Shown here piece after piece: positions 3,491-63,900 of a stretch of DNA of 64,000 nt. This DNA comes from a virus (lineage: Duplodnaviria > Heunggongvirae > Uroviricota > Caudoviricetes), in IMG/VR virus record IMGVR_UViG_3300043449_002776. One strand, 5' to 3'. A program made the translations under genes and the position numbers. The notes under the pieces were generated by a model. It saw nothing but the letters and a program-made list of their open reading frames with translations, was not told where the DNA came from and did no database searches. Position 1 is the first letter of the stretch, and every line of letters begins with the position of its first letter.

Positions 3491-4042
3491 ATGAATACTA
3501 CACAAGAACTTGTGTTAAAATACGTACCTTTAGCCAATAAAATGGCCTATCAGAAGAAAAAAAGTCTTCCAAAATTTGTTGATGTTGAAGACCTGAAGTC
3601 AGCGGCCTATCTTGGTTTGGTTGAAGCTGCAAACAGATTCAATCCAAATCTTGGAATTGCATTTACCACGTTTGCTTATCCTAGAATTTTCGGGGCAATA
3701 CATGATTACCTTAGAGAACAAGGGTGGTTTAAACGGGGCGATTCAACTCCTATGATGAGCTTAGATTCATCTTCTGATGATAAGGAATATGCTTTGAAGG
3801 ATTTGATTTCTTCAAAAATTGACAGCAAAATCGATGAAAGCTTAGAGGTTGTAACACTTGATTTCGACGATCAAGCTAAAGATATATTTAAACATTATTT
3901 TGTCGAAGAGTATTCGATGAAAGAAGTTGGAGATATGATAGGCTTGTCTGAAAGTAGAGTAAGTCAATTGATTAAACTTTACAAAGGCAAAATCAAGGAA
4001 AAATGGTCTCGACCCTTATTGATTGAAGAACTTGCTGCATAA
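3491..4042 (+). CDS. RNA polymerase sigma factor, sigma-70 family (phage-encoded)
   Basis: Region-2-like YLGLVEAANRFNPNLGIAFTTFAYPRIFGAIHDYLRE and C-terminal region-4-like helix-turn-helix (MKEVGDMIGLSESRVSQLIK). Confidence 0.7.
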   Translation: MNTTQELVLKYVPLANKMAYQKKKSLPKFVDVEDLKSAAYLGLVEAANRFNPNLGIAFTTFAYPRIFGAIHDYLREQGWFKRGDSTPMMSLDSSSDDKEYALKDLISSKIDSKIDESLEVVTLDFDDQAKDIFKHYFVEEYSMKEVGDMIGLSESRVSQLIKLYKGKIKEKWSRPLLIEELAA

Positions 4043-11969: not shown

Positions 11970-12860
11970 ATGGCACTGATGGAGGTCGAGGAGCAGACCA
12001 GTTTAGAGCAAGTTGCGTTTTTGACCCAAAAAGTACAAGGGAGACTGAAGCGAATTTTCAAGGTGCGTGAATTTGACGATCCAGCCAATCGTCAAGTCTT
12101 TCTAGGTGTCATGCCTCAATACGAATCATATCTGGAACAGGTTCGACAGGTTCAATCACAAAGCACAAGATCTGTTGCTGATCATCTTAAGGCTTGCTAT
12201 CAAGAGCCTCTAATGAGTAAAGATCAGGAATATCATCAGTTCCGAAAATACAACTATCACAAATTTTTGGCCCAAAAGTGGCTGGAACTTGACCGTATTT
12301 TCAAGGCTTGTGCGGAATTGAAGCGTGCCGATGAAGTGCGAAAGATGATTACCAACGCAAATGTGCGTTTGTGTATTCCCATCGTAAAGAAGTACCGAAG
12401 TGCTCGGCATCACGAGGATCTTGTTAGTGAAAGTTACTATTTGATCCATCGTGCCGTCGATTACTATGACTATACTCGGAATTTCAAGTTCAGCACTTAT
12501 GCAACGTGGGCCGTCTACAACACGATGGGCAGAACAGCCCAAGACTTGTTCAAGCACGATGCTGTTCATTGTGGTGAAATTGATACGGTTTCTCCCACTT
12601 TAACCACGGGCGAAGCTGAGCAAAAAGAAAAGCATGATGATGACCACTTCAAAGTGCTTGTCAGCAAGCTTTTGAGTTTTGCACATGAACGAGAGCGAGA
12701 TGTGCTTCACCGCAGATTCTTTGTGGGTGAAACCTTGGACGCAATTGGCAAGGACATGGGGGTCACTAAAGAAAGAGTCAGACAAATTGAAATCGCAGGG
12801 ATCGCTCGTCTTGCCAAGAAGGCGGCGGAAATGGGCTTGTCAATCGAAAATGTTTGGTAA
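11970..12860 (+). CDS. RNA polymerase sigma factor, sigma-70 family (RpoD/RpoS-like)
   Basis: Region 2 (YLIHRAVDYYDYTRNFKFSTYATWAVYN) and region 4 (LDAIGKDMGVTKERVRQIEIAGIARL) recognisable. Confidence 0.8.
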   Translation: MALMEVEEQTSLEQVAFLTQKVQGRLKRIFKVREFDDPANRQVFLGVMPQYESYLEQVRQVQSQSTRSVADHLKACYQEPLMSKDQEYHQFRKYNYHKFLAQKWLELDRIFKACAELKRADEVRKMITNANVRLCIPIVKKYRSARHHEDLVSESYYLIHRAVDYYDYTRNFKFSTYATWAVYNTMGRTAQDLFKHDAVHCGEIDTVSPTLTTGEAEQKEKHDDDHFKVLVSKLLSFAHERERDVLHRRFFVGETLDAIGKDMGVTKERVRQIEIAGIARLAKKAAEMGLSIENVW

Positions 12861-13102: not shown

Positions 13103-14689
13103 ATGGCTAACAAGAATATTTTCAAGAATACCGGTGCAAGTGTTCCTGCAACCGATACCACAAACAATGCTGGTGGAAAGGCTTATCGCTTTGATAAGCG
13201 ACACTGCCTCGCACAAATTGCGGCGACAAACTGCTTCAACGGCACCTTCTATGCGAGTGCAGAGGACAATCTGAAGCTGGCTAAGGAAGCCGCTCTTGCT
13301 CTGCGAGACGATCCTGAATTCATCGCTAAGGTGGCGTTGTATGCCCGTGACAAGGCATACATGAAAGACATGCCTGCTTTTCTGACCGTGGTTTTGTCGG
13401 AAATCGACAAGCCGCTGTTCCGTAAGGTCTTCCGCAGGGTTGTAGACAACGGCAAGATGCTCCGTAATGTCATTCAGATGGCACGAAGCGGTGCTGTGAC
13501 TACCAAGAAGGCCAACATGTCGGCGGGAACTTGGCGTCATGCGATTCAGGAATGGTTCGATAGCCGAAACGCTGTTGCACTATTCAAGGCATCCATTGGC
13601 AATGATCCAAGCATGAGAGACATTCTCCGTATGGCTCGACCAAAGCCTAACTCCCCTGAAAAGGAGGCGTTGTTTGGTTATTTCATCGGCAAGGATGTGT
13701 CTGTAGATCGTCTGCCCGAGAACGTGCGTGCGTATGAGCTTTACAAGAAGGATAAGTCTGGACCTGTGCCAGATGTGGACTTCCGTATGCTCGACTCGTT
13801 GGGAATCGGTGATGCTGAATGGTCTCAGATCGCAGGGCGTGCTCCTTGGATGATGACTCGGATGAACCTGAATACGTTTGCTCGTCATAACGTATTCAAG
13901 GATTCAGGTCTTACCAAGGTTATTGCTGATCGTCTCAACAACAAGGAACTGATTGAGAAGGCTCGTGCTTTCCCATACCAGTTGTATGTTGCTTGGCGTG
14001 AGATCTCCAACAATAACGATATTCCGTCGTTGGTGAAGGAAGCGTTGCAGGACGCTATGGAAGCTGCCATTGAGAATGTGCCAGCCCTTCCGGGCGAAGG
14101 CTTCGTTTGCGTGGACATGTCCGGCTCTATGAGTAGTCCGATCACGGGCCATTCTGCTGGTCGCCACAGTTCGTCTGTAACCTGTGTTGAGGTTGCTGGC
14201 TTGATCGCTTCAGCGGTTTACCGTAAGAATCGTTCAGCACAGATTTACACCTTCGACAGTACGGCAACTTTGGTTAATCTCAATCCTAGAGATACTGTTT
14301 TGACGAACACTTCGAAGCTGAGCAAGGCCGGTGGCGGAACAAACATTTCTGCTCCTTTGCATGATCTCAACAGAAAAAATGCCAAGGGCGATTGGGTGTT
14401 CTATGTTTCAGACAATGAATCATGGATCGACTCTGGCTCCAGATACAGTTACTACGGTACTGGTCTGGCAGATGAGTGGAAGAAATTCAAGTCTCGTAAC
14501 CCGAAGGCTCGTTTGATTTGTTGCGACTTGACTCCAAGAAACAACAGTCAAATTAAGTGTCAGCCTGATGTTTTGCAGGTTGGTGGATTCAGCGATCAGG
14601 TTTTTGATGTGATTGCATCCTTCTTGGAGCATGGGCACGAATCTGATCACTGGGTCTCTGAGATTGAGAAAGTTGTCTTGCCAGATTAA
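13103..14689 (+). CDS. TROVE-domain (Ro60-like) protein with C-terminal von Willebrand A domain
   Basis: N-terminal TROVE-like sequence (KAYRFDKRHCLAQIAATNCFNGTFYASAEDN...), vWA MIDAS motif VCVDMSGSMSS. Confidence 0.7.
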   Translation: MANKNIFKNTGASVPATDTTNNAGGKAYRFDKRHCLAQIAATNCFNGTFYASAEDNLKLAKEAALALRDDPEFIAKVALYARDKAYMKDMPAFLTVVLSEIDKPLFRKVFRRVVDNGKMLRNVIQMARSGAVTTKKANMSAGTWRHAIQEWFDSRNAVALFKASIGNDPSMRDILRMARPKPNSPEKEALFGYFIGKDVSVDRLPENVRAYELYKKDKSGPVPDVDFRMLDSLGIGDAEWSQIAGRAPWMMTRMNLNTFARHNVFKDSGLTKVIADRLNNKELIEKARAFPYQLYVAWREISNNNDIPSLVKEALQDAMEAAIENVPALPGEGFVCVDMSGSMSSPITGHSAGRHSSSVTCVEVAGLIASAVYRKNRSAQIYTFDSTATLVNLNPRDTVLTNTSKLSKAGGGTNISAPLHDLNRKNAKGDWVFYVSDNESWIDSGSRYSYYGTGLADEWKKFKSRNPKARLICCDLTPRNNSQIKCQPDVLQVGGFSDQVFDVIASFLEHGHESDHWVSEIEKVVLPD

Positions 14690-19686: not shown

Positions 19687-19812
19687 TTGGGCAGGTAGCT
19701 CAGTGGTGTTTCCAACAGTAATGTTGGAAACTTCGGCGGGATGCAAGTTCAGTCGTACAGAGCATTCTCCTGAAAAGGAGAAGGGTCGCTGGTTCGAGTC
19801 CAGCCCTGCCCA
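19687..19812 (+). tRNA. tRNA-Phe (anticodon GAA) with about 52-nt insertion in the D-loop
   Basis: Perfect 7-bp acceptor GGGCAGG/CCTGCCC, D-stem GCTC...GAGC split by insertion, anticodon loop CTGAAAA, T-arm GCTGG TTCGAGT CCAGC. Confidence 0.45.
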
Positions 19813-19889
19813 CTTGGCGGAATGACGTTGTGGTTTACATCAAAAGTTGTTTGAAGAACAAACTACAACAACCTTTGTCCGCCAAATAC

Positions 19890-19985
19890 GCCGAATAGTT
19901 TAAGGGCAAAACACTCGGGAAGGTTATCGAGGCAACTCGGTGGACGCCGGGGGAATTGGAGGTTCGAATCCTTCATTCGGCACTA
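19890..19985 (+). tRNA. tRNA, long (96 nt), isotype undetermined
   Basis: Acceptor GCCGAAT/ATTCGGC, T-arm GGAGG TTCGAAT CCTTC; interior contains extra hairpin CGAG GCAA CTCG. Confidence 0.4.
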
Positions 19986-31145: not shown

Positions 31146-31218
31146 GACTCCTTGGCATGTCTGGGATTGCAGCAAGCTGTTAACTTGCACTAGCTCGGTT
31201 CGATTCCGAGAGGGGTCT
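31146..31218 (+). tRNA. tRNA-Asn (GTT)
   Basis: Anticodon stem GCAAG/CTTGC loop CTGTTAA. Confidence 0.8.
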
Positions 31219-31223
31219 CTTGT

Positions 31224-32082: not shown

Positions 32083-32120
32083 CTTGCCGAAATGCTAGAA
32101 GGGATTACATCTTTTCCGCC

Positions 32121-32197
32121 AAACTTGGGAAAGTGGTGTAGTTGATGCACACCGTCTGCATAAGACGGAGGGATGGGTTTGACTCCCATAAACTTGT
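32121..32197 (+). tRNA. tRNA-like element (Met CAT-type anticodon arm) without pairing acceptor stem; flanked by AAACTTG direct repeat; preceded by conserved 22-nt motif
   Basis: D-arm GTGT..GCAC, anticodon stem CCGTC/GACGG loop TGCATAA, T-arm ATGGG TTTGACT CCCAT, but 5' GGGAAAG cannot pair with 3' AAACTTG. Confidence 0.3.
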
Positions 32198-32226
32198 TCT
32201 CTTCGCCTTTTGTTCGGCAAATTATG

Positions 32227-32298
32227 GTGTCCATAGTGTAGTGGCTCGCACGTCTGCTTGTGAGGCAGAAAGTACCGGTTCAATCCCGGTTGGACACC
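32227..32298 (+). tRNA. tRNA-His (GTG) with encoded G-1
   Basis: G-1 plus acceptor GTGTCCA/TGGACAC with C73; loop TTGTGAG. Confidence 0.8.
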
Positions 32299-32375
32299 CT
32301 TGAGAGAATGCTAGTTGGGATTACATCTTTTTGGTAGAAAAACATCTCAACAATTTTTTTGTCTCTCATTTTTAT

Positions 32376-32492
32376 GGTGGCTGTGATGTAATGGGCCTCT
32401 TAAGTCAAAGTGCGTAGCTTTGTCGGTAAGTTGGACGGAAAGCATCAGATACTGTGACTATCTGAGTGTAGGTTCGAATCCTACCAGCCTCC
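32376..32492 (+). tRNA. second tRNA-His (GTG)-like gene interrupted by about 45-nt insertion within the D-loop
   Basis: G-1 + acceptor GTGGCTG / CAGCCTC + C73; D-stem ATG...CAT separated by insertion; anticodon stem AGATA/TATCT loop CTGTGAC; T-arm GTAGG TTCGAAT CCTAC. Confidence 0.4.
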
Positions 32493-32588
32493 CTTTAGGA
32501 ATTTTAGTCTCTAGCAGGAATTGAAATGTGTGCTTTTGTTAATAGTCGCACTCGTATATACAGGAAACTGTAAAGGTGTGAGCATTGA

Positions 32589-33295: not shown

Positions 33296-33379
33296 GCATT
33301 AGATGTGACCGTAATGAGCAATGGTAGCGAGTCCCGTAAGGGTAGGTACATGTGGGTTCGAGTCCCATCATCTAATGCA
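33296..33379 (+). tRNA. tRNA-like gene (84 nt), isotype undetermined; unusual 10-bp terminal helix
   Basis: GCATTAGATG pairs perfectly with CATCTAATGC; T-arm GTGGG TTCGAGT CCCAT; internal CCC GTAA GGG hairpin; no clear anticodon arm by eye. Confidence 0.35.
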
Positions 33380-33856: not shown

Positions 33857-33954
33857 TTCTTTTTATGTCTTATTCAAAAGTAAAAAATTGGCGACAAAAT
33901 ACAAAAAACTTTTAGTTGAATCTTTAGGCGGAAAATGCAATAGATAAGGATTAC

Positions 33955-34001
33955 ATCTTTTCATCAAAGAGAGGCCGTGGGTTCGAATCCCACCCCCACA
34001 A
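33955..34001 (+). tRNA. 5'-truncated tRNA-Met(CAT)-type 3' portion (pseudogene or split gene) immediately after conserved motif
   Basis: ATCTT TTCATCA AAGAG + V + GTGGG TTCGAAT CCCAC + CCCCACA; no matching 5' acceptor strand within 100 nt upstream. Confidence 0.3.
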
Positions 34002-34058
34002 CTCAGTAAATTTGATATAGTGTTCGAATTCCAGTAAGATAAGTTGAGGAGCAAAGAC

Positions 34059-34436: not shown

Positions 34437-34541
34437 GCGGAAGATGCTCATGGGAGCTTTTCTCTTTCACTTTTTGTTTCTTAAGCACTTAAGAAAATGC
34501 AGATTGGGATTACATCGTTGGTTCGATTCCAATCTTCCGCT
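34437..34541 (+). tRNA. tRNA-like gene with about 60-nt insertion containing the conserved motif in place of the anticodon arm
   Basis: Acceptor GCGGAAG ... CTTCCGC pair perfectly; D-stem GCTC/GAGC; T-arm GTTGG TTCGATT CCAAT directly follows GGGATTACATC. Confidence 0.35.
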
Positions 34542-34904: not shown

Positions 34905-34975
34905 GCAGGTGTCGTATAATGGTATTACCCCAGTTTTCCAAACTGGCGAAGAGGGTTCGATTCCCTCTACCTGCT
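34905..34975 (+). tRNA. tRNA-Gly (TCC)
   Basis: Acceptor GCAGGTG/TACCTGC; anticodon CCAGT TTTCCAA ACTGG. Confidence 0.75.
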
Positions 34976-34976
34976 C

Positions 34977-35107
34977 TTCGACGTAGCTCAGTGGTAGAGC
35001 ACCTAAAAATAGTCTTTTCACTACTTGTCTGCGAATTAGCAGAATGATAGAAAGGATTACATCGCATTCGGAGCGGGTGGTCGTTGGTTCGAATCCAACC
35101 GTCGATA
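34977..35107 (+). tRNA. tRNA-Arg (TCG) interrupted by a conserved 59-nt insertion between position 26 and the anticodon stem
   Basis: 5' part TTCGACG TA GCTC AGTGGTA GAGC A; insertion 35002-35060 ending in GAATGATAGAAAGGATTAC; 3' part ATCGC ATTCGGA GCGGG + V + GTTGG TTCGAAT CCAAC + CGTCGAT; removing insertion gives a 72-nt cloverleaf. Confidence 0.45.
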
Positions 35108-35153
35108 TTACAGTTTTGTCAGAAGCGGGTTCTGTTTAAAAACCCATTGAACA

Positions 35154-35283
35154 CTCGGCGTAGCTTAATGGCTAAAGCACTAAAAATAGTCTTTTCAATC
35201 TTTGTCTGCGAATTTGCAGAATGTCAGAAAGGATTACATCACCTGTTAAGTGAGGGATGTTGGTTCGAATCCAGCCGCCGAGG
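35154..35283 (+). tRNA. tRNA-Asn (GTT) interrupted by the same conserved 58-nt insertion at position 26/27
   Basis: Perfect 7-bp acceptor CTCGGCG/CGCCGAG; insertion 35180-35237 about 90% identical to that in 34977-35107; anticodon arm ATCAC CTGTTAA GTGAG follows motif. Confidence 0.45.
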
Positions 35284-35461
35284 CATAATTCAACGGGATT
35301 ACATCTCGGTATGAACGAGAACTCCTTCACAGGTCGTAGGGGAGTTTTGAGTCGCCATTGACACGACGACGGTGGATATGGTTGTGCCTGTTTATGGCAT
35401 ACTCAAAAGTAGGTGCAAGCGTAGGCATACGTTCTAATCCTGCTAGTTTCGTTGAATTTAT

Positions 35462-35548
35462 TCTAGGGTAGCCGAGTTGGTAGCAGGCACCTGACTGTTA
35501 ATCAGGAGTGGTTTATCCCCGTCGCAAGTTCGAGTCTTGCCCCTAGAG
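35462..35548 (+). tRNA. tRNA with GTT anticodon and unusually long (17-nt) variable region
   Basis: Acceptor TCTAGGG/CCCTAGA, class-II-like D-arm GCC...GGC, anticodon CCTGA CTGTTAA TCAGG, T-arm GCAAG TTCGAGT CTTGC. Confidence 0.45.
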
Positions 35549-35583
35549 CTAAATTTTGATTATTCATATCATTACATATTGGT

Positions 35584-38560: not shown

Positions 38561-38718
38561 TTTTCACAAGTAAAATGTGTATATAAGATTGCATTTAAAA
38601 CTTGTGAGAATGCAGACTGGATTACATCTAATTTTATCTTAGTGATTTCCTGCGAAATCAAGTCTTGTCGTTATTTGTCTCACATCTTTTTGCTTTTTGA
38701 ATTGACAAATTTTCGAAT

Positions 38719-45766: not shown

Positions 45767-45778
45767 GGAGTGTGTGAA

Positions 45779-46174
45779 ATGAAGACTAAGCAAGTAATTG
45801 TCATGAGGTACAAATACCCTGATGGCAAAGGGGGAACTGTTGGCCTTCGGACAGGCAAATATATTGCCCAAGCATGTCATGCCTCAATGGCATTTCTGTC
45901 TCGTCGAGTATTCGAGACACAAGGCACTCCAATCTTTAGTGATGCTGAAATTAATTGGTTCCAGAACAGTTATGCCAAAGTTTGTTGCCGGGTAGATACT
46001 GAAGAAGAGCTATTAGATATTTACGAAAAAGCGAAGGCTGCTGGTTTAGAAGTTCATTTAATTACCGATAGTGGCAAAACGGAATTCAAAGAGCCAACCA
46101 AAACTTGTCTTGCTATTGGTCCTGATTTGGCCGAAAAGATAGATCCAATAACTGGTCATTTAAAACTACTGTAA
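45779..46174 (+). CDS. peptidyl-tRNA hydrolase, PTH2 family
   Basis: GKYIAQACHAS resembles PTH2 GKIAAQCSHA active-site region; AAGGAG RBS. Confidence 0.6.
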   Translation: MKTKQVIVMRYKYPDGKGGTVGLRTGKYIAQACHASMAFLSRRVFETQGTPIFSDAEINWFQNSYAKVCCRVDTEEELLDIYEKAKAAGLEVHLITDSGKTEFKEPTKTCLAIGPDLAEKIDPITGHLKLL

Positions 46175-46418: not shown

Positions 46419-46494
46419 GGGGTCACTTAGGAAGCCTTTATCGTAAAACCTACATGGAATGATAAAGTAGAGAGTTCGAGTCTCTCTGACTCCA
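46419..46494 (+). tRNA. tRNA-like element (acceptor + T-arm present, no recognisable anticodon arm; contains motif-like GGAATGATAAAG)
   Basis: Acceptor GGGGTCA/TGACTCC; T-arm GAGAG TTCGAGT CTCTC. Confidence 0.3.
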
Positions 46495-49956: not shown

Positions 49957-50226
49957 GGGTCATTAGCTCAATGGTTAGAGCAACGGACTTCAATAGGAGT
50001 GCTTAGAGGGAAACCTCTAATGTAGAACCTCTCAAATTCGGTGAACGCTTAACTGCCAATACCGAGCCAAGCCTGTTGATCAGGAAGGTGTAGAGACTTG
50101 ACGGGAGGCACCTAAAACCACAAGGTTATGGTGAAGGTAAAGTCCAGACCACAAACTGCAAGGGTAACGAAAGTTATAGTGGTAAAGTTAATCCGTAGGT
50201 TGTAGGTTCGAGTCCTACATGGCCCA
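49957..50226 (+). tRNA. tRNA (probably Lys, TTT) interrupted by about 197-nt group-I-like intron (49991-50187) in the anticodon loop
   Basis: 5' exon GGGTCAT TA GCTC AATGGTTA GAGC A ACGGA CTT; 3' exon TTAA TCCGT AGGTT GTAGG TTCGAGT CCTAC ATGGCCC; exon ends in T and intron ends in G as for group I; intron has R/S-like elements GTAGAGACTTGA and AAGTTATAGTGG. Confidence 0.5.
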
Positions 50227-50943
50227 TTTTTTTTTGCTCCAGTAACCAACTGGTGGTTTGCTGATTCCATACTTTTCACACCAGCCTTGAATTGCTTTGT
50301 CAGTCACTCCATATATTTTGGCGATATGGATGGTTGGTATTTCCCAAATCATCTTTTGAAGTGTGGCCTTGTCAGGCCAAACAACTTTTCTACGAGTAGG
50401 TCTATCAGAATTTCTTTCTTTTTTCTTTTTGATTTCTTTTTCTTTAGCTGTTCTAGTTTTTGTCATAAACGCTTCAAATTTTGCCGTAACAAATTCAGAG
50501 GTTAATGTGATTTCTGGACATTCCAAAATTTTGCTATGAATCTTTCTGTGGCAGTTACTACAAACACATACACATTTTGTAAGTTCGTTTATAAGTCCTT
50601 TTATCGATTTCATGCCAACAAATTGTGATATATTTTTGTCTTTTTGGCCATCTTTGTGGTGAAAATCTAAACAAGCCGGTTCTTTTTCATCACATATACT
50701 GCAACCCAATTCTGCTTTCAAATCTCTAACCGCAATTTGTAAAAGATGTTTTTTCTTTTTGTTGTAGCTGTGGATACGTGTTGATGTATTTTCTTTATTT
50801 TTGTTTTTTTGATACCAATCTTTTGCATTTTGATTTGCACAACTTTTGCACCAGCTATGATATCCAGTTTTACTTTTTGGGTTTTTATTAAACTCTGATT
50901 CATTTTTTGAATAACCGCAATTAGCACATTTTACTTTACACAT
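50215..50943 (-). CDS. HNH homing endonuclease
   Basis: HNH motif DFHHKDGQKDKN...CVCSNCHRKIH; zinc-finger N-terminus; C-terminal HTH-like. Confidence 0.75.
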   Translation of the reverse strand: MCKVKCANCGYSKNESEFNKNPKSKTGYHSWCKSCANQNAKDWYQKNKNKENTSTRIHSYNKKKKHLLQIAVRDLKAELGCSICDEKEPACLDFHHKDGQKDKNISQFVGMKSIKGLINELTKCVCVCSNCHRKIHSKILECPEITLTSEFVTAKFEAFMTKTRTAKEKEIKKKKERNSDRPTRRKVVWPDKATLQKMIWEIPTIHIAKIYGVTDKAIQGWCEKYGISKPPVGYWSKKKWAM

Positions 50944-50993: not shown

Positions 50994-51034
50994 TTTTAAC
51001 TCCGAGGTTGTAGGTTCAAGTCCTACTGGGGGCA
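50994..51034 (+). pseudogene. duplicated tRNA 3'-exon fragment (anticodon-stem 3' strand + V + T-arm + acceptor 3')
   Basis: TTTTAACTCCGAGGTTGTAGGTTCAAGTCCTACTGGGGGCA is about 80% identical to 3' exon of tRNA at 50188-50226; no 5' half upstream. Confidence 0.5.
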
Positions 51035-51044
51035 CTTAAGTTTT

Positions 51045-57012: not shown

Positions 57013-57918
57013 ATGACTATGACTTGGGCAGAAAGCTATAATAAGCTCTTGCAAGGCGACTATGATAATGGTTGGCCAAGCCATGATATTATTCCTGTTC
57101 AAAACAAAAACGGCACATCAGCAGCAAGTACGTATGGCTTGCCTATTTGGCAAGGGGATATTGAGCCGATAAGCCTGCTAGTCAATGCCGAGTTTGGCGA
57201 CGGCGATACAATTCAATACTACAGATTCATTGAAGCCGCCAAGCAAAGAGTTAGCAAAGTTATTTTGCGATGCAATGATGAATTTGCTCATTTGTTTTCG
57301 GATATAGAAGTTGCTTCTTCATTCTCAGAGCCTCCAGAGGCTGATAAAATCATTCACATGATGGCTTTGCCCAAAGTCTTGCAAATCAAGAAACAAAATA
57401 TTTGTGGCAAGGCGTATCTTAAACCGAATGGGGCTGTTCCCGCTTGTGAGCCGATACAAGTATTAAGTTCCTATGGCTTTTCTAAGTTTGGACTTAATTG
57501 GGCAGGCAATCCCTTTAGTCCACGAGATTCTATAAGATCTATTCCTGTGGATTTGTTTTCAAAATTGCATATTGAAGGCATACGGTTCTTCAGTCTAAAT
57601 AAACTTTTTACACCTCCACAGTCTTATTTTGATTGCAGAGGCTTGATGTATGACTGGAATCAGACGGCTCATTTGATCAGTTTAATGAGCCTTGTTATTA
57701 CTGTGGAAACATCAATTGCTTGTTTGGCTGGTGCTCTTGGCGTGCCAGTTTGGGTGCTCGTCCCTTCTGAAGCACCTGAATATCGATGGGGACTTGAAGG
57801 CACTTCTACGCTGTGGTATGACAGTATGAAGCTCTACAGGAAGCAAGGAACTTGGGAAAATACTTTAGATCAAGTAGCCTTAGATTTTAGAGAGCATCTT
57901 GCATGTTCTTACTCTTAA
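57013..57918 (+). CDS. putative GT9-family glycosyltransferase (heptosyltransferase-like)
   Basis: C-terminal VITVETSIACLAGALGVPVWVLVPSEAPEYRWG resembles GT9 donor-binding region. Confidence 0.4.
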   Translation: MTMTWAESYNKLLQGDYDNGWPSHDIIPVQNKNGTSAASTYGLPIWQGDIEPISLLVNAEFGDGDTIQYYRFIEAAKQRVSKVILRCNDEFAHLFSDIEVASSFSEPPEADKIIHMMALPKVLQIKKQNICGKAYLKPNGAVPACEPIQVLSSYGFSKFGLNWAGNPFSPRDSIRSIPVDLFSKLHIEGIRFFSLNKLFTPPQSYFDCRGLMYDWNQTAHLISLMSLVITVETSIACLAGALGVPVWVLVPSEAPEYRWGLEGTSTLWYDSMKLYRKQGTWENTLDQVALDFREHLACSYS

Positions 57919-60900
57919 GACTGTTTTTTACTCGTTTGTGCTCGGTCTTTGCTTGCTGCATTACTTTGGACTTAGACTTACTTGAGAGTTTGTCATCTTT
58001 AATCGCTTTAATTGGCTTGGGCAATGCTTTCAATGCAGCCATTTCAGGACTGTTGTTAGTCGCACTAACAGAGCTTTGATTTCTAGAATTGTTTTTATCA
58101 ATCTTCTTGATTTCTGTGACTTCACGAACCACTGGTTTTTGTGGTGCATCCTTAACTTTTGGCTTCGGAGCACTTGGTGTCTCCAGCTTTTTGAGTTGAG
58201 CCATTTGAGGCGTATTGTTAAGTGGTTCTGCTGAATTTTCATTTCTTGCATGACGTTTATTTGTTTTTTTAACTTCGTTTGTTCTTACAATTTCAAGTTC
58301 AATTTGCGGCTTTGCATTTGGTGTTGTAGGAACTTGTAAGCTCTTCAATTGAGCCATTTGTGGTGTGTTTTGCAACTGAGGAGTGCTCAAGTCATCTAAT
58401 CTGAACGAAGGCAACATCATCATGCTGCCAGTTTTGTTAGGCCGAATTTGTGGTTTTGGATCTGCTGGAGGAAAATAAGTTTTCGGAACAGCATCTTCTG
58501 GTTTAACTCTGATTTTTTGACGGCAGAAAGTAATGGCTGGCAAATATGCCACTCCACCAAAACAAGGCAGGGAATCTTGGGATTGGTTGATGCAAAGTGC
58601 AGTAATATCTTTTCTTTGCTTGTAAACAAGCTTTGAGCCAAAGCCTTGAACAAAATCAATTACACCACAGAATTGATGATCATTCTTGTATCCGCATTTG
58701 ACAGCAACTGGGCATTTGCTTACGGTGATGTAAACCTTTCCACTGCTCAGTTTTGCAGTGCCACCACATGTTGCTCCACCTTGTGGATATATTACGAAAA
58801 TATTTGTGAAGTATTCGCCACCGCACAGTACGCCGCCTGTAGCAAGATGTGCATGTGTCATCTGTACTACTGCACTACCTGATGCAAGTACACCGAAGTT
58901 AACTGTTGCTATGTAATCACTTACAGCACTGCCCGAAACTATGGCACCGCCTGTCATACTTGTATCAACAACTGCAAATTTCTCTATATCAGCTTGTCCA
59001 TTTAGTGTGATTCCGCCACTAGTGGAGATATTGTAAATTGCAAATACGCTGCTTGTTCCAGAGCCTTTACATCCACCAGATGCATTGAATGTTTCAGATT
59101 CATTTGATGTGGCACTGCCTGAAGCCCGAACTCCCCCAAACGTAGTTGGGTTGAATACTATGAATTGCCCCGATTGACCAGATGCAACAGATCCACCAGA
59201 TGTAATTGTGTTGATTTGAGTTTCTTGGCTCGAAGCACCTGTCGCAGTTGATCCACCACTACTCATTAAATTGTAAATAGCAGCAATATTACTTGCACCA
59301 TTTACTAAGACGCCTCCAGTCATTTGCTGTGTTTGATCAAGAAGCTGAACACTACTTCCACTAACTAAGCTTCCGCCACTAGCCAATATGTTATAAGCTG
59401 CATTTGCAAGAGCAGAGCCACTTAGGGTTGTTCCGCCTGACATTGTTTCTGTGTTGGCTGAGGCAGAGCCTACAGATCCATTAGCAATCACTCCACCAGA
59501 GCTTGTAATGTTGTAGATTGCTGAGTTTGTTGATGCTCCATTTACAACAATGCCACCACTCATGTTTTCGGTGTTGTTGCTTAATTGACTTACGGTGCCA
59601 GAGGCTAAAACTCCACTTGATCCAAGCACATTGTAAGTCGCCTGTGTGGTTGCTGATCCGCTAGCAAGTACACCACCAGACATAGATTCAATGTCATTTA
59701 ATGCTTGTGAGACGGTTCCATTTGCAGTTATTCCGCCTGATGCAATAACATTATAAATTGCACTAAGTGTAGCACTGCCATTTGCAACAATGCCACCAGA
59801 CATTGATTCTATGTCGGCAAAAGTTGAACCTACTGCTCCGCTAGCAAGAACACCACCAGAAGCGGTTATATTGTAAGCTGCAATATTGATTGCTGCACCG
59901 TTGGCAAGTGAACCACCAGACATTGATTCGGAATCGACAAATGTGGTTCCTATTGTCCCATCGACTTTTGCACCACCCGAAACAGCGAGATTGTAAGTTA
60001 CGACGGCAGTTGCCGCTCCATTAATAAGCACTCCACCGGACATTGTTTCAATATCAGCAAACGTGCTTGCTATTGTTCCTCCAGCAAGGGCACCATTGGT
60101 AGCAGTGATATTGTAAGAAGCAACGACACTTGATGTTCCACCAGCAAGAACACCACCAGACATAGTCTCGATATCGGCAAAAGTCGTTACTATTGTTCCA
60201 TTAACTGCAACCCCGCCACTTGCGGTAACATTATAAGTAACAACAGCATTTGCTATTCCACTGGCAAGAGCACCACCAGACATTGACTCACTGTCAACAA
60301 AGGTAGTTCCCGCTGTTCCGCTTGCAATAACACCGCCGAAAGCGTTAATGTTGTAAGTGGCAAGTGCAGTTGTTGTTCCGCTAGTAACAACACCACCGGC
60401 CATAGTCTCGATATCGGCAAAAGTAGTTGCTATTGCTCCATTAAGTGTAATTCCGCCACTTGCGGCAACATTATAAGCAACAACAGCGGTTGCTGTACCA
60501 CCAGCAAGAGTTCCACCCGACATTCTCTCAATGTCAGCGAAAGCACTTCCTGCTGTGCCATTGACTTTTGCACCGCCACTTGCAATAACATTGTAAATTG
60601 CAGTAGCAGTAGACGTTCCTCCAGCAAGAACTCCACCAGACATTGTCTCGGTGTCAGCAAATGTGGTTCCTGCTGTTCCATTGGGTTTTGCACCACCACT
60701 TGCGGCAACATTATAAGTAGCAACAGCGGTTGCTGTTCCGCCAGCAAGGGTTCCACCTGACATTGTCTCAATGTCAGCAAATGTGGTTCCTGCTGTGGTG
60801 TTTAATTTTACTCCACCAGAAACGGCAACATTGTAAGCTGCAAGGGAGTTTGCTGTTCCACCAGCAACAGCACCACCAGTGACTGTATCAACGTCAGAGA

Positions 60901-63900
60901 AGGTTGCCCCTGCTGTTCCGTCAGCAAGAGCACCGCCTGAAGCAGTGGTATTGTAAGTTGCAACCGTAGTTGCTGTTCCGCCAGCAAGAGCACTACCTGA
61001 AGCGGTGGTATTGTAAATTACAGTTGTGGCAGACGCTCCTCCAGCAAGCACGCCGCCAGACATTAATTCAAGATCGCTAAATGTTGTTGCTGTTGTTCCA
61101 TTTACTTTTATGCCACCTGAAACGGCTACATTGTAAATTGCAGTGATAGCAGACGTTGCTCCAGCAAGAACTCCGCCAGACATCAATTCAGCATCATTGA
61201 AAATTTGTTGTACAGTGCCACCGGCTAAGAGGCCACCTGAGGTAGTAATATTGTAAGTTGCGAGCGGTGTAGTTGCACCATTAACGACAACTCCTCCTGA
61301 TGAAATTTCAGAAGTTATTTTAACTCCATCTGTGCTTCCGTTTACAACAGCCCCAACGTATTCTTCGAAGTTTCCGACAGAAGAAAGAGTTAAATTTTGA
61401 TACAGATCAAATCTACTTGCTGGTGAGTACATCTCATAAGCTTCATTTGCTGTAATTGCTCTGTCGTAAATTCTTATGTCGTCTATCGAAATATTTGCAT
61501 AACTAGAACTCAAAGATAGATCGGAATAACCTGTTCCTATCTTTAATGTTCCCAAGCATGGGGCAATTTCTCCGGTACAGCCTTCGGATTGAATTTGAAT
61601 TCCATTTTTGTAAAGAATTAAAGTTGAACCGTTATAAACTAGACTGTAATGAATCCATGCAGTGCTTGTATTGCTTGAGCCATCAACAATGTCGATAGTA
61701 CTAAATTGTGGAGATGGACTTGATGTGCCTGTTTCAAGCTCGAATCTAAAGCTGCCGTTATAATCTGCATAGAACTTAAATTGTGTAGTAGATGGTGGTG
61801 AAGTCGAAGAATCTGATTGTTCTAAAAACACTTCATCAGCAGTTCCCAATCCATTTCTTCTTACCCACAATGAAATTGTGCAAGAAGATTTATTTCCCAA
61901 GTAATCGACAGTTTCACTTTCGGCAAATTCACTCAAGCCATCAAATGTCAAAACTCTGCCATGAACATCATCAGTTTGCCAATTTAAAGTAACATCCGTT
62001 GACTGAATGGTTGCATGATTATCGCTTATTCTGTTGTAGATAAGTTGAGATTCTGAACCAAAGCCACCCCACCAAGATCTCAATCCTCTCATTTGGCTAG
62101 AAGATCTATTCAAAGACTTAAAGCCAGTTGGTTTGAAATTTTGTGCCAGTCGATTTGGAGGGATTACAAATCCATAATCTGTGTACAATTGTGGGTTGTA
62201 AATTGCATATACGGATGCGGTTCCACCAGCCGATACTCCTGCACCCTCTGTGGTAACATTTCCTGCAACCTTATCGACAATTGCTGTTCCTGAACATATT
62301 ACACCTCCTGAAGTTTGTTGAGTGTAAATGTAATTTATTGAACTTGATCCGTTTAGTATGGCTCCGCCAGATGCACTGACATTGTAAGTTGCAACGGAAT
62401 TTACGGTTCCATTTACAACAATTCCACCAGATATGGATTCAACGTCAGCAAAGGTTGTTCCTGCCGTTCCATTAACTCTTACGCCACTAGAGGTTGTGAT
62501 GTTGTAAGTTGCAAGAGGAGTTGTTGTTCCGCTAGCAAGAATGCCGCTAGACATTGTCTCAATGTCAGTAAAGGTTGTTCCTGCCGTTCCATTAAGTCTT
62601 ACACCGTCGAGTGTTGTGATGTTGTAAGTTGCAAGAGGAGTTGTTGTTCCATTGACTCTTGTTCCGCCTGAAGCAGTGATATTGTAAGTCGCAACAGCAG
62701 TTGCAGTTCCATTAGCAAAAGCACCACCGGACATTGTGTCAACGTCAGCAAAGGTTGTTCCTGCTGTTCCATTTGCTTTTGCACCACCAGAAGCAGTGAC
62801 ATTATATGTTGCAATTACTGTTGCAGTTCCGCCAGCAAGAGCACCACCGGACATAGTGTCAATGTCAGAGAATGTTGTTCCTGCTGTGCCATTTGCTTTT
62901 GCACCACCAGTTGCTGTGACATTGTAAGTTGCAAGAGGAGTTGTTGTTCCGCCAGTAATAGCACCACCAGACATTGTGTCAACATCAGCAAAGGTTGTTC
63001 CTGCTGTTCCATTTGCTTTTGCACCACCAGAAGCAGTGACATTGTAAGTTGCAAGAGCGATTGCTGTGCCACCAGCAAGGGGACCACCAGAAGCAATGAC
63101 ATTGTAAGTTGCAACAGCAGTTGCATTTCCACCAGCAAGGGCACCACCAGACATTGATTCAGTGTCTGCGAATGTTGTTCCTGCTGTACCGTTTACTACA
63201 GTTCCGCCAATTGCTGTGATATTATAAGTTACAACAGCAGTTGCAGTTCCACCAGTAATAGCACCACCAGACATTGTGTCAACATCAGCAAAGGTTGTTC
63301 CTGCTGTTCCATTTGCTTTTGCACCACCAGAAGCAGTGACATTATATGTTACAATTGCTGTTGCATTTCCACTAGCAAGGACACCACCGGACATTGATTC
63401 AATGTCTGCGAATATTGTTCCTGCTGTTCCATTGACTTTTGTACCACCAGAAGCAGTGACATTATATGTTGCAATTACTGTTGCAGTTCCGCCAGCAAGA
63501 GCACCACCGGACATAGTGTCAATGTCAGAGAATGTTGTTCCTGCTGTTCCGCTTACTACATTTCCTCCACTTGCAGTAACATTGTAAGTTACAAAAGCAT
63601 TTGCCGTTCCGCCAGCTAGGGTTCCGCCACTTGCGATAACATTGTAAGTCGCAATTGCAGTAGCGGTTCCACCAGCAAGAGCACCACCTGTAACTATGTC
63701 AACGTCAGCAAATGTTGTTCCTGCTGTTCCACCAGATAGGCTTCCGCCAGAAGCAGTGACATTATATGTTGCAATTACAGTTGCTGTTCCATTTACAACA
63801 ATTCCACCAGCCATTGCTTCAGTATCGCCGAATATTGTTGCCGCTGTTCCGCCAGATAGGGCTCCACCACTTGCGATAATATTGTAAGTTGCTACGGCAG

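What the first reader, a model, noticed from the sequence alone, without database searches (positions are those of the whole stretch)
34977..35283. Two adjacent tRNA genes (Arg-TCG and Asn-GTT) each split by a near-identical 58-59-nt insertion between position 26 and the anticodon stem
In both genes a canonical 5' part (acceptor strand, U8, D-arm, nt 26) is followed by CTAAAAATAGTCTTTTCA..CTTGTCTGCGAATT.GCAGAATG..AGAAAGGATTAC (about 90% identical between copies, contains the conserved motif). Then comes a canonical anticodon arm, V loop, T-arm and a perfectly complementary acceptor 3' strand. Deleting exactly the inserted block yields 72-nt cloverleaves. The insertion point is not the canonical 37/38 intron site and the element is far too small for a group I or II intron. 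The tRNA sequences differ while the insert is conserved, which implies mobility or recent spread. This may be a new class of tRNA intervening sequence, or a miniature insertion element needing an unknown excision or ligation activity.
Basis: seen in the sequence. Interest (0 to 1): 0.85.

Follow-up and report, generated by a model that had tools for sequence, protein, structure and literature searches.

The report
tRNA-shaped Y RNAs with Ro60-binding arm
The two "split tRNA genes" are real, but the inserted block is most likely not an intron or jumping element: it matches the hairpin of bacterial Y RNAs thought to bind the Ro60 protein, which this large phage encodes, so these are complete tRNA bodies carrying a probable Ro60 handle, a gene layout I did not find described.

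Summary
Genes at 34977-35107 and 35154-35283 are cloverleaves interrupted after nt 27 by a 58/59-nt block that is 52/58 identical between them. Deleting the block gives tRNA-Arg(UCG) and tRNA-Asn(GUU).

The "new intron or mini-transposon" interpretation is not supported. The block matches, segment by segment, the predicted Ro60/Rsr-binding stem of YrlA/YrlB Y RNAs. It has the (GNN)GAAUG motif, two covarying stems, the conserved UUAC and a CUAAAAA 3' strand. The window encodes a Ro60 homolog (13103-14689) and at least six further Y-RNA-like genes carrying the same motif.

Classic YrlA is circularly permuted, with its ends in the Ro stem. Here the Ro stem is a closed hairpin and the ends sit at the acceptor stem. 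I found about 18 further such units in 11 phage-like contigs. They have compensatory changes in every helix, G15-C48/A15-U48 covariation and anticodon loops that obey tRNA rules. All four complete GUU units have discriminator G. In two contigs the units lie beside a Ro60 gene.

Best reading: one-piece tRNA-shaped Y RNAs that keep the hairpin and tether Ro60 to tRNA-binding partners. Excision remains a minority possibility. Verdict: a new variant of a known kind.

The parts
34977..35107 (+). Gene 1: tRNA-shaped Y RNA with an Arg(UCG)-type anticodon arm. It directly abuts the 3' end of tRNA-Gly (34905-34976).
   Evidence: Model R1, built only from non-window units, scores it 124.1 bits, E 2e-32, full length. 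The minimum-energy fold is a five-arm cloverleaf, z -2.5. ARAGORN calls tRNA-Arg(tcg) after deletion of the block.
35004..35061 (+). Y module of gene 1: linker UAAAAAUA; middle stem GUCUUUUC/GAAAGGAU (35012-19 with 35050-57); internal loop ACUACUUG / AUGAUA; outer stem UCUGC/GCAGA (35028-32 with 35039-43); loop GAAUUA; UACA (35058-61).
   Evidence: Block alignment with 10 permuted YrlA units: 99.5% of cells paired and 13/18 pairs with compensatory changes. The hairpin alone folds at -15.6 kcal/mol, z -3.4. A profile of Y 3' strands ranks 35004-35030 among the top three hits of the window.
35154..35283 (+). Gene 2: tRNA-shaped Y RNA with an Asn(GUU)-type anticodon arm and discriminator G.
   Evidence: R1 scores it 103.5 bits, E 9e-27. 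The Rfam tRNA model gives 40.9 bits across the insertion. Fold z -4.4. An ortholog lies at L127 11523-11652.
35181..35238 (+). Y module of gene 2. Same architecture as in gene 1; it differs only in unpaired positions.
34437..34541 (+). Third unit in tRNA order: acceptor GCGGAAG/CUUCCGC, D arm, Y hairpin (outer stem UUUCUUAA/UUAAGAAA, then AAUGC...GGGAUUACAUC) and T arm. It has no anticodon hairpin.
   Evidence: 7/7 acceptor pairing around the unit; R1 34.3 bits; z -2.8.
13103..14689 (+). Ro60/Rsr homolog (TROVE ring plus vWA domain), the presumed protein partner.
   Evidence: Pfam vWA_Ro60 6.6e-13 and TROVE 3.4e-12. PDB sequence matches: phage phiLo Ro60 9L5Y/9KOP 1.6e-14, D. radiodurans Rsr 2NVO and Xenopus Ro60 1YVP.
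32084..32222 (+). Y RNA with the Ro stem formed by its 5'/3' ends (UUGCCGAA/UUCGGCAA, AAUGC...GGGAUUACAUC). Inside are D-like, anticodon-like and T-like hairpins.
   Evidence: fold -47.4 kcal/mol.
32296..32373 (+). YrlB-like hairpin Y RNA.
   Evidence: Rfam YrlB 39.1 bits, E 1.2e-6 (below the gathering score of 97). The family consensus contains GaAUGCUgGcCgGGAUUACAUcUUU.
33925..34003 (+). Partial unit: Y 5' strand, hairpin, T arm and CCCCACA. Its 5' half is missing or degenerate. The complete ortholog is L127 8722-8851.
35288..35455 (+). Large Y-like RNA closed by AAUUCAACG/CGUUGAAUU. It carries GGGAUUACAUC but no GAAUG.
   Evidence: fold -65.4 kcal/mol.
38598..38689 (+). YrlB-like Y RNA (outer stem UGUGAGA/UCUCACA, then AAUGCAGACUGGAUUACAUC).
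   Evidence: Rfam YrlB 16.4 bits; fold.

Best explanation
The two genes are tRNA-shaped Y RNAs. Each is a complete L-shaped tRNA body with acceptor stem, D arm, anticodon arm, class-I variable loop and T arm. A hairpin of about 58 nt, homologous to the predicted Ro60/Rsr-binding stem of YrlA/YrlB Y RNAs, is inserted into the 5' strand of the anticodon stem between nt 27 and 28.

They are the one-piece, non-permuted counterpart of classic YrlA. In YrlA the ends lie in the Ro stem and the acceptor-like stem is closed. In M. smegmatis that stem is opened by RNase P and receives CCA.

Inferred steps:
1. They are co-transcribed with the tRNA array. Gene 1 abuts tRNA-Gly.
2. They are matured by RNase P, 3' processing and CCA addition, like tRNAs.
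3. They keep the hairpin, which is bound by the phage Ro60 ring.
4. The authentic tRNA body, with its anticodon loop and discriminator, is then presented to tRNA-binding proteins.

In this way Ro60, and whatever it recruits (for example an exoribonuclease), is tethered to those proteins. Alternatively the RNA acts as a decoy or competitive inhibitor of tRNA-targeting enzymes such as anticodon nucleases.

Shown here: the structure, the homology, the covariation, the linkage to Ro60 genes and the tRNA-like identity features. Inferred: expression, processing, Ro60 binding and the biological role.
For: 1. Motif. The 3' half of the block is GAAUG-N6-GAAAGGAUUACAUC. The same motif, (G)AAUG(C)-N5-10-GGAUUACAUC, occurs 8 times on the + strand inside the tRNA region. 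One copy hits Rfam YrlB, and the YrlB consensus contains that string. The Rfam YrlA consensus reads CgaAUGCuuggGgaaCUAc...GAGC...aAaAcUuG. This corresponds to the window's GAAUG...GGAUUAC and to CUAAAAA...CUUG after the D arm. Chen et al. 2014 (PMC4201824) assign GNCGAAN0-1G to Rsr recognition and describe the conserved YUAY.

2. Protein partner. A Ro60 homolog is encoded in the window.

3. Shared architecture. The two-stem structure is shared with 10 permuted YrlA units from IMG/VR: 99.5% of cells paired, 13/18 pairs with compensatory changes, 0/500 shuffles as good. A profile of their 3' strands, which were not part of the fetch pattern, puts its three best window hits on the predicted 3' strands.

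4. Known phage relative. The 3' half of gene 1 is 89% identical over 45 nt to a YrlA-like unit of Caulobacter phage CcrPW. Another CcrPW unit has the loop CUGUUAA. Phages of this group were already reported to carry Ro60 and Y RNAs (PMC12135203).

5. More units in tRNA order. About 18 further distinct units were found in 11 contigs. A model built without window sequences scores gene 1 at 124 bits and gene 2 at 104 bits, against 53 bits for the best ordinary tRNA. Across 21 aligned matches (20 distinct), 96.8% of cells pair and 25/32 pairs have compensatory changes, including all 7 acceptor pairs and the N27-N43 pair.

6. tRNA fold. The Levitt pair covaries: G15-C48 in 10 units, A15-U48 in 10, with 1 exception.

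7. Linkage to Ro60. Units lie directly beside Ro60 genes in L131 and L142.

8. Units with no anticodon arm. Some units lack the anticodon hairpin altogether (34437-34541, L130:531, L131:665, L136), so the hairpin itself is the constant functional part.

9. Closed hairpin. In several units the Y hairpin is closed by a 4-nt GAAA loop, which excludes ends inside it.
Against: - The Rfam YrlA and YrlB models do not hit gene 1 or gene 2 even at E<=10. The order of parts differs from the models, so this is expected, but it means family membership rests on my own alignments.
- The Rsr motif is GCAGAAUG, with A where GNCGAA has C.
- In the window the Ro60 gene is 20 kb away, outside the 4-kb rule of Chen et al.
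- Alignment A2 was hand-fitted to the structure. The database patterns pre-selected GGATTACA, GGTAGAGC and GGTTCGA.
- A plain Ro60-tether role does not by itself explain why anticodon loops and discriminators keep tRNA identity rules.
- There are no expression, processing or binding data.
Confidence: 0.75

Rival explanations
1. Excisable intervening sequence. The Y hairpin is cut out and the ends are ligated (for example by an RtcB-type ligase, perhaps with Ro60 assisting). This would yield ordinary tRNA-Arg(UCG) and tRNA-Asn(GUU), so the genes would be regulated pre-tRNAs.
For: - Exact deletion gives canonical cloverleaves.
- The N27-N43 pair, anticodon-loop rules and discriminators are kept.
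- In bacteria rsr and Y RNAs often sit beside rtcB, and Wang et al. (bioRxiv 10.1101/312249) raised the possibility that YrlA could be processed into a tRNA-like form.
Against: - No BHB-like junction pairing appears in the folds.
- No ribozyme or intron family matches at E<=10.
- No RNA ligase, Pnkp or splicing-endonuclease domain was found in the roughly 50 window ORFs scanned.
- The conserved parts of the block are those of a protein-binding Y stem, not of splice junctions.
- Sister units have no anticodon arm to liberate.
- Characterised YrlA RNAs keep the stem (PMC4201824).
- The window already has a canonical tRNA-Asn(GUU) at 31146-31219.
Confidence: 0.1
2. Decoding tRNAs that keep the extra arm. 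They are aminoacylated and used on the ribosome, with the Ro60-binding arm protruding from the anticodon stem much as a long variable arm does.
For: - All four complete GUU units have discriminator G, against 0 of 14 other units. The UCC unit has U73.
- The N36/N37 rule holds in 10 of 11 distinct loops.
- Every distinct loop has U33 and R37.
- The Levitt pair and all tRNA core elements are conserved.
Against: - A helix of about 25 bp leaving the anticodon stem at position 27/28 would probably clash in the ribosomal A and P sites (inference, not modelled).
- Gene 2 is redundant with a canonical tRNA-Asn.
- The His- and Pro-type units lack the expected discriminators.
- Some units have no anticodon arm.
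Confidence: 0.1
3. A classic permuted YrlA formed across neighbouring genes. The 3' half of gene 1, the 45-nt spacer and the 5' half of gene 2 would make one YrlA, and the outer halves would be leftovers.
For: The acceptor 3' strand of gene 1 can pair 6/7 with the 5' strand of gene 2, and the two Y half-stems are interchangeable (read). The Sim & Wolin dimeric-tRNA origin model is cited in 10.1101/312249.
Against: - Within-unit acceptor pairing is 7/7 with compensatory changes across the family (99.2% of cells), but only 5-6/7 between neighbours in L127.
- Stand-alone units exist (L126, L128, L142 and 34437-34541).
- The Y hairpins are closed by 3-6-nt loops, including GAAA tetraloops.
Confidence: 0.03
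4. A miniature mobile element (MITE, or IS200/605-like PATE) that inserted into two tRNA genes, or decaying pseudogenes.
For: The block is more conserved (90%) than the tRNA parts (70%).
Against: - There is no target-site duplication, and no terminal inverted repeats other than the functional stems.
- The insertion site is identical (27/28) in all 20 distinct units.
- Compensatory changes in both stems show selection at the RNA level.
- The block is homologous to YrlA stems.
- Full copies of the block occur nowhere else in the window.
Confidence: 0.02

Closest known systems
YrlA (Y RNA-like A; Rfam RF02553; Chen et al. 2014, PMC4201824; crystal structure in Wang et al. 2018, bioRxiv 10.1101/312249)
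   Same: - The Ro-stem sequence blocks are the same: ...GAAUGC, a GG-rich stem, YUAY on the 5' strand and AAAAA...CUUG on the 3' strand.
- The D arm (GUAGCUCAnnGGUAGAGC) and T arm (GGUUCGAAUCC) are conserved.
- The Levitt pair covaries.
- The genes are linked to Ro60, and the family is present in phages.
   Different: - The order of parts differs. In YrlA the T arm precedes the D arm, the acceptor-like stem is a closed loop and the ends lie in the Ro stem.
- Here the ends are at a free 7-bp acceptor stem and the Ro stem is a closed internal hairpin.
- Most units here also carry a true anticodon arm followed by a class-I variable loop.
- The Rfam YrlA model does not detect them.
[quoted passage not shown]
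   Same: The mature architecture is the same: a tRNA body with an open acceptor end plus a Ro-binding stem.
   Different: The mycobacterial RNA is in two pieces and reaches that form by processing. The phage genes encode it in one piece.
YrlB (Rfam RF02565) and D. radiodurans Yrn1/Yrn2
   Same: - YrlB shares the GAAUGC...GGGAUUACAUC string.
- Yrn1 also has its D arm 5' of its T arm, with an anticodon-like arm between them.
   Different: - YrlB is a simple hairpin without a tRNA body.
- In Yrn1 the Ro stem replaces the acceptor stem. The window RNA at 32084-32222 resembles that layout; genes 1 and 2 do not.
Archaeal non-canonical tRNA introns and permuted or split tRNA genes (BHB-dependent)
   Same: An intervening block at a non-37/38 position whose removal restores a cloverleaf.
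   Different: There is no bulge-helix-bulge, no splicing endonuclease in a bacterial or phage context, and the block is a conserved protein-binding module.
YrlA-like cluster of Caulobacter phage CcrPW (Colossusvirus), MH588545.1 about 116.0-117.0 kb
   Same: - One unit is 89% identical over 45 nt to the 3' half of gene 1.
- The anticodon-like loops match (AUUAGGA, CUGUUAA).
- GAGC-R-C(C)UAA follows the D arm.
   Different: The CcrPW units are in permuted order, have a GGUGGCGUAG-type Ro motif, and in one unit ACCA is encoded after the acceptor 3' strand.

Membership tests
YrlA/YrlB-type bacterial Y RNA | A Ro60/Rsr ortholog is encoded nearby on the same strand (Chen et al.: within 4 kb). | tested here: inconclusive
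   The window's Ro60 gene is at 13103-14689 (+), 20 kb upstream on the same strand. In L131 and L142, sister units lie 0.5 kb from a Ro60 gene on the same strand.
YrlA/YrlB-type bacterial Y RNA | Rsr-recognition motif GNCGAAN0-1G on the 5' strand of the stem. | tested here: inconclusive
   Genes 1 and 2 have GCAGAAUG, with A in place of C. The family consensus is NNGAAUG(C). The variable positions lie in the covarying outer stem.
YrlA/YrlB-type bacterial Y RNA | Conserved YUAY after the stem, followed by the variable region and the T arm. | tested here: met
   UUAC is invariant in every window copy. It is UUAC in 18 of the 20 distinct units and CUAC in the other two (L131:177 and L131:665), which still fits YUAY.
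YrlA/YrlB-type bacterial Y RNA | tRNA-like D and T arms with conserved tertiary-pair nucleotides. | tested here: met
   U8, A9, GG in the D loop and GGUUCGAAUCC are present. G15-C48/A15-U48 covaries in 20 of 21 units.
YrlA/YrlB-type bacterial Y RNA | Permuted order: T arm 5' of D arm, closed acceptor-like stem-loop, RNA ends in the Ro stem. | tested here: not met
   The D arm is 5' of the T arm. The 7-bp acceptor encloses the whole unit. The Ro stem is closed by a 3-6-nt loop.
YrlA/YrlB-type bacterial Y RNA | Reaches the Rfam gathering score of RF02553 or RF02565. | tested here: not met
   There is no YrlA or YrlB hit on 34960-35300 at E<=10. The neighbouring copy at 32296-32373 reaches 39 bits against a gathering score of 97.
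YrlA/YrlB-type bacterial Y RNA | Physical binding to Ro60/Rsr. | not testable with these tools
   This needs EMSA or RIP with the phage Ro60.
Canonical tRNA | Contiguous cloverleaf of about 72-90 nt recognised by tRNA finders. | tested here: not met
   ARAGORN finds nothing in the native sequence. The cloverleaf is recovered only after deleting 58/59 nt. The Rfam tRNA model gives 40.9 bits for gene 2 by treating the block as an insertion.
Canonical tRNA | Anticodon loop rules (7 nt, U33, R37) and identity elements. | tested here: met
   The loops are AUUCGGA and CUGUUAA. Across the family, all 11 distinct loops have U33 and R37. GUU units have G73 in 4 of 4 cases.
BHB-type (archaeal/eukaryal) tRNA intron | Bulge-helix-bulge at the exon-intron junctions, and a splicing endonuclease. 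| tested here: not met
   The folds show the block as an autonomous hairpin with no exon-intron helix. No endonuclease or ligase domain was found in the scanned window ORFs. The rest of the genome was not seen.
Group I/II intron or small self-cleaving ribozyme | Match to a catalytic-core model, and adequate size. | tested here: not met
   The block is 58 nt. No Rfam family other than tRNA reaches E<0.6 in 34960-35300.
Miniature transposable element | Terminal inverted repeats or target-site duplication, and copies at varied sites. | tested here: not met
   The full block occurs only inside the two genes. Its position is always 27/28.

The most novel reading that the evidence does not exclude
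These RNAs are genuine, chargeable tRNAs (Asn, Arg and others) that carry a Ro60-binding arm. Two sub-readings are possible:
(a) Ro60-bound precursors whose arm is removed by a cut-and-ligate pathway. This would be the first protein-dependent tRNA 'splicing' at position 27/28 in a bacterial or phage system, and a concrete function for Ro60/Y RNA/RtcB modules.
(b) Charged tRNA decoys that deliver Ro60 and an associated nuclease to host anticodon nucleases or other tRNA-targeting defences.

They would also be living examples of the tRNA-to-Y-RNA transition.
Probability: 0.2. Interest if true: 0.85.

Novelty: new variant of a known kind. Interest (0 to 1): 0.62.

Why it matters
- What the tRNA-like domain of bacterial Y RNAs does, and where Y RNAs came from, are open questions in the Ro60 field.
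- These units are full tRNAs, with anticodon loops and discriminators that still follow tRNA identity rules, and with a predicted Ro60-binding hairpin attached. [quoted passage not shown]
- The layout suggests that a Y RNA can arise from a single tRNA by a hairpin insertion, not only from a tRNA dimer.
- Practically, tRNA finders miss these genes, and earlier Y-RNA surveys discarded hits that overlapped tandem tRNA genes. The class may therefore be under-counted in large phages.

Tried and rejected
Searches that led nowhere:
- Scanning IMG/VR with the central hairpin string TCTGCGAATTNGCAGAATG gave only two chance hits in coding DNA.
- An exact look-up of the neighbouring ORF found nothing. 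Its relatives in IMG/VR are only 32-48% identical, so no close genome was found that way.
- blastn against cultured phages gave only tRNA-level hits plus CcrPW.
- RNAalifold on an uncurated MAFFT alignment of in-silico-joined modules predicted no pairs. I replaced it with an N-padded curated alignment.
- An nhmmer profile of the Y 5' strand without the GGATTACATC motif was uninformative.
- Two review papers on bacterial Y RNAs were not held in the library. Absence of prior description therefore rests on full-text searches and on reading PMC4201824 and 10.1101/312249.

Ideas considered and dropped:
- The GGATTACATC motif as a phage promoter. It sits in covarying RNA stems and matches the YrlB consensus.
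- An IS200/605-like element ending in TTAC. There is no target variety and no second end.
- A hammerhead or other ribozyme. No Rfam hit.
- The anticodon-like hairpin as a class-II variable arm. It is followed by N43 and a canonical NGGUC variable loop, and it obeys anticodon-loop rules, so it is the anticodon arm.
Full report
**1. The observation**

The window is a stretch of a large bacteriophage-like genome.
- It holds 27 tRNAs called by ARAGORN, mostly between 30.5 and 44.2 kb.
- It encodes two sigma-70-family factors, an NAD-dependent DNA ligase, PTH2 and glycosyltransferases.
- It has no close relative among cultured phages.

At 34977-35107 and 35154-35283 there are two tRNA-shaped genes that ARAGORN does not call. 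Each has an acceptor 5' strand, U8 A9, a D arm and A26. A block of 58/59 nt follows, then a 4-5 bp stem with a 7-nt loop (AUUCGGA in gene 1, CUGUUAA in gene 2), a 4-5 nt variable loop, a T arm, an acceptor 3' strand and a discriminator.
- The block pattern occurs exactly twice in the window, against zero expected. The two copies are 52/58 identical, and all six differences fall in predicted unpaired positions.
- Removing the block in silico makes ARAGORN call tRNA-Arg(tcg) and tRNA-Asn(gtt).
- The Rfam tRNA model bridges the block in gene 2 at 40.9 bits.
- The full RNAs fold as five-arm cloverleaves with z-scores of -2.5 and -4.4. The block alone forms a two-stem hairpin with z -3.4.

Gene 1 has a U1.U72 mismatch; its ortholog has C1-G72. 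The insertion lies after nt 27, not after nt 26.

**2. What the block is**

Its 3' part, GAAUG-N6-GAAAGGAUUACAUC, is one copy of a motif that recurs in the tRNA region. The motif is (G)AAUG(C)-N5-10-GGAUUACAUC, and it is found eight times on the + strand.

The copy at 32296-32373 hits Rfam YrlB at 39.1 bits, E 1.2e-6. That is below the family's gathering score, but the YrlB consensus literally reads GaAUGCUgGcCgGGAUUACAUcUUU.

The Rfam YrlA consensus reads: cggCgaAUGCuuggGgaaCUAc..[T arm][closed stem][D arm]..uucCccaaAaAcUuGucGccg. This lines up with the window's block segment by segment:
- After the D arm: A-C(C)UAAAAAUA, then the 3' strand of a middle stem, then an internal loop ending CUUG, then the outer stem.
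- On the other strand: the outer stem, then AAUG.., then a middle stem ending GGAU, then UAC.

Chen et al. (PMC4201824) assign GNCGAAN0-1G to recognition by the Ro60 ortholog Rsr and describe the conserved YUAY.

The window itself encodes a Ro60 homolog at 13103-14689.
- Pfam: TROVE and vWA_Ro60.
- PDB sequence matches: phage phiLo Ro60, D. radiodurans Rsr and Xenopus Ro60.

**3. Tests of that homology**

(a) An IMG/VR scan for GGATTACATC followed by a T arm gave many chance hits. It also gave about 15 genuine YrlA-type units in the classic permuted order.

I joined the two Y strands of 10 of them in silico and aligned them by blocks with the three contiguous hairpins of the window.
- The two stems are 99.5% paired.
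- 13 of 18 pairs show compensatory changes.
- No shuffle and no slid control comes near.
- Caveat: this alignment was hand-fitted to the structure.

(b) I built a profile from only the 3' strands of those 10 units. Those strands played no part in fetching the units. Its three best hits in the whole window fall on 32336-63, 35181-35207 and 35004-35030, exactly the predicted 3' strands. The individual E-values are weak, at 0.25 to 1.3.

(c) blastn links the 3' half of gene 1 (UUAC through the T arm) to a YrlA-like cluster in Caulobacter phage CcrPW at 89% identity over 45 nt.
- Another CcrPW unit carries the same CUGUUAA loop as gene 2.
- The same GAGC-G-CUAAAAA follows its D arm.
- Ro60 and Y RNAs were already reported for phages of this group (PMC12135203, citing Chen 2014).

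**4. The order of parts, and the wider family**

Classic YrlA is circularly permuted relative to tRNA. Its ends lie in the Ro stem, the T arm precedes the D arm and the acceptor-like stem is closed. In the window the order is that of a tRNA, and the Ro stem is a closed hairpin.

I searched for the pattern GGTAGAGC-N35-65-GGATTACA-N0-30-GGTTCGA.
- IMG/VR gave one such unit (L126, from a 262-kb contig).
- JGI metagenome contigs gave ten loci with genuine units.
- GTDB genome contigs gave one (L142).

A covariance model (R1) built from 10 non-window units gave these scores in the window:

| Target | Bits | E-value |
|---|---|---|
| Gene 1 | 124.1 | 2e-32 |
| Gene 2 | 103.5 | 9e-27 |
| Best ordinary tRNA | 52.6 | 1.1e-12 |

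R1 also found further units in the same contigs, often in tandem and up to four per locus. L127 comes from a relative of this phage. It holds orthologs of both genes plus an Arg(UCU) unit and a CAU unit.

Over the 21 aligned matches (20 distinct sequences):
- 96.8% of cells pair and 25 of 32 pairs have compensatory changes, with 0/500 shuffles as good.
- All seven acceptor pairs that enclose the whole unit show compensatory changes.
- The pair between the nucleotide just 5' of the insertion and nt 43 varies as C-G 12, A-U 3 and U-A 1.
- The tertiary Levitt pair covaries: G15-C48 in 10 units, A15-U48 in 10, with one exception.

Several Y hairpins are closed by GAAA tetraloops.

In L131 three units follow a Ro60 gene that is 47% identical to the window's. 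In L142 one unit follows a Ro60 gene.

This is therefore a recurrent, selected RNA class linked to Ro60. It is not a peculiarity of this window.

**5. The anticodon arm is real**

The hairpin after UUACA is followed by N43 and a canonical class-I variable loop (NGGUC or GGAU). It therefore occupies the anticodon-arm position, not the variable-arm position.

The 11 distinct 7-nt loops in the family are:
- AUUCGGA, CUUCUAA, CUGUUAA, UUCAUAA, AUCAUAA, CUGUGGA
- UUUGGGA, AUAUGGA, AUUUUGA, AUUAGGC, AUUCCAA

They follow the rules of real tRNAs:
- All have U33 and a purine at position 37.
- Ten of 11 obey the rule that U36 goes with A37 and G36 goes with G37.
- All four complete GUU units have discriminator G, which is the Asn identity element, against 0 of 14 other units. 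These four units come from three lineages.
- The UCC unit has U73, as in tRNA-Gly (the identity rules are from my own knowledge of E. coli tRNA identity).

The same kind of anticodon-like loop is seen in the permuted IMG/VR and CcrPW units. Chen et al. called this hairpin a less-conserved 'V' stem-loop.

Some units have the Y hairpin but no anticodon hairpin: window 34437-34541, L130:531, L131:665 and L136.

**6. Mechanism**

*Shown here:* the structure, the homology to the Ro-binding stem, the covariation, the linkage to Ro60 genes and the retention of tRNA identity features.

*Inferred:*
- Co-transcription with the tRNA array. Gene 1 starts at the nucleotide after tRNA-Gly, and the four preceding tRNAs are 6 nt apart.
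- RNase P and 3'-end processing with CCA addition. M. smegmatis YrlA is a proven RNase P and CCA substrate (PMC4201824).
- Retention of the hairpin and its binding by the phage Ro60.

The mature product would be the one-piece equivalent of processed mycobacterial YrlA: a tRNA body with a Ro60 handle protruding from the top of the anticodon stem.

The role is probably to tether Ro60, and the enzymes it recruits, to proteins that recognise specific tRNAs. Alternatively it is a decoy or competitive inhibitor of tRNA-targeting nucleases, an idea already floated for YrlA (PMC7790460). Gene 2 is redundant with a canonical tRNA-Asn(GUU) at 31146-31219, which argues against a simple decoding role.

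**7. Rival explanations**

*Excision to give ordinary tRNAs* is not excluded, but several points count against it:
- No BHB-like junction pairing appears in the folds.
- No ribozyme or intron family matches.
- No ligase or endonuclease was found in the ORFs scanned in the window.
- Some units lack an anticodon arm altogether.

*A permuted YrlA read across genes 1 and 2* is possible for the window alone, where cross-pairing is 6/7. At family level it is contradicted by within-unit 7/7 covarying acceptors, by stand-alone units and by tetraloop-closed hairpins.

*A mobile element or pseudogenes* is contradicted by the fixed 27/28 site and by the compensatory changes.

**8. Novelty**

Y RNAs with tRNA-like domains, including in phages, are known.

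I did not find any description of this layout, meaning tRNA order, a free acceptor end, a closed internal Ro hairpin and a bona fide anticodon arm.
- Full-text searches found none.
- The two key papers I read do not describe it.
- The 2014 survey explicitly discarded hits that overlapped tandem tRNA genes.
- Two reviews were not available to me.

I therefore rate it a new variant of a known kind. It is not a new class of intron.

Noticed in passing
window 19689-19813 (+) and 19890-19983 (+): A tRNA-shaped gene with a two-hairpin insertion of about 50 nt inside the D loop. The insertion has no GGAUUACA motif. After the insertion is deleted, ARAGORN calls 'tRNA-??? (gaaa)' with an 8-nt anticodon loop. 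Next to it is ARAGORN's 'tRNA-??? (aggt)', which also has a four-base anticodon. This could be a pair of quadruplet-decoding or frameshift-suppressor-like tRNAs.
   Followed up: partly
window 35462-35549 (+): An 88-nt tRNA with a long variable arm (class-II shape) but an Asn-type anticodon loop CUGUUAA and discriminator G. This is an unusual combination.
   Followed up: no
window 32084-32222, 32296-32373, 33925-34003, 35288-35455, 38598-38689 (+): At least five more Y-RNA-like genes with the same motif but different layouts are interspersed in the tRNA array. They include one with the Ro stem at the acceptor position, two YrlB-like hairpins, one large Y-like RNA and one partial unit. This is an unusually large Y RNA repertoire for one genome.
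   Followed up: partly
window 32377-32493, 33299-33377, 46419-46494, 50162-50227, about 51004-51036 (+): Further tRNA-like elements with good T arms that ARAGORN does not call. One is 117 nt long and one has a terminal stem of about 10 bp.
   Followed up: no
L007 / L035 / L109 (IMG/VR), e.g. L007 about 1328-1420 (+): A tRNA-Lys(UUU)-like gene in tRNA order with only a 20-nt insertion, CUGGAGACAGACGGAUUACA, before the anticodon stem. It has no GAAUG and no hairpin. It may be a reduced form of the same class.
   Followed up: no
L003 (Caulobacter phage CcrPW, MH588545.1 about 116.0-117.0 kb): An unannotated cluster of at least five YrlA-like units upstream of the hypothetical gene gp146c, which has weak Ro60 similarity. 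One unit encodes ACCA after its acceptor 3' strand. ARAGORN finds no tRNA there.
   Followed up: partly
window 57887-63934 (-): A 2015-aa ORF built from dozens of degenerate 120-nt (40-aa) repeats. It is probably a fibre or adhesin-like protein.
   Followed up: no
window 45770-46174 (+), 3491-4042 (+), 11970-12860 (+), 23113-24713 (+): The window also encodes a PTH2-type peptidyl-tRNA hydrolase, two sigma-70-family factors and a JAB/ThiF pair. This is translation- and conflict-related cargo typical of very large phages.
   Followed up: no
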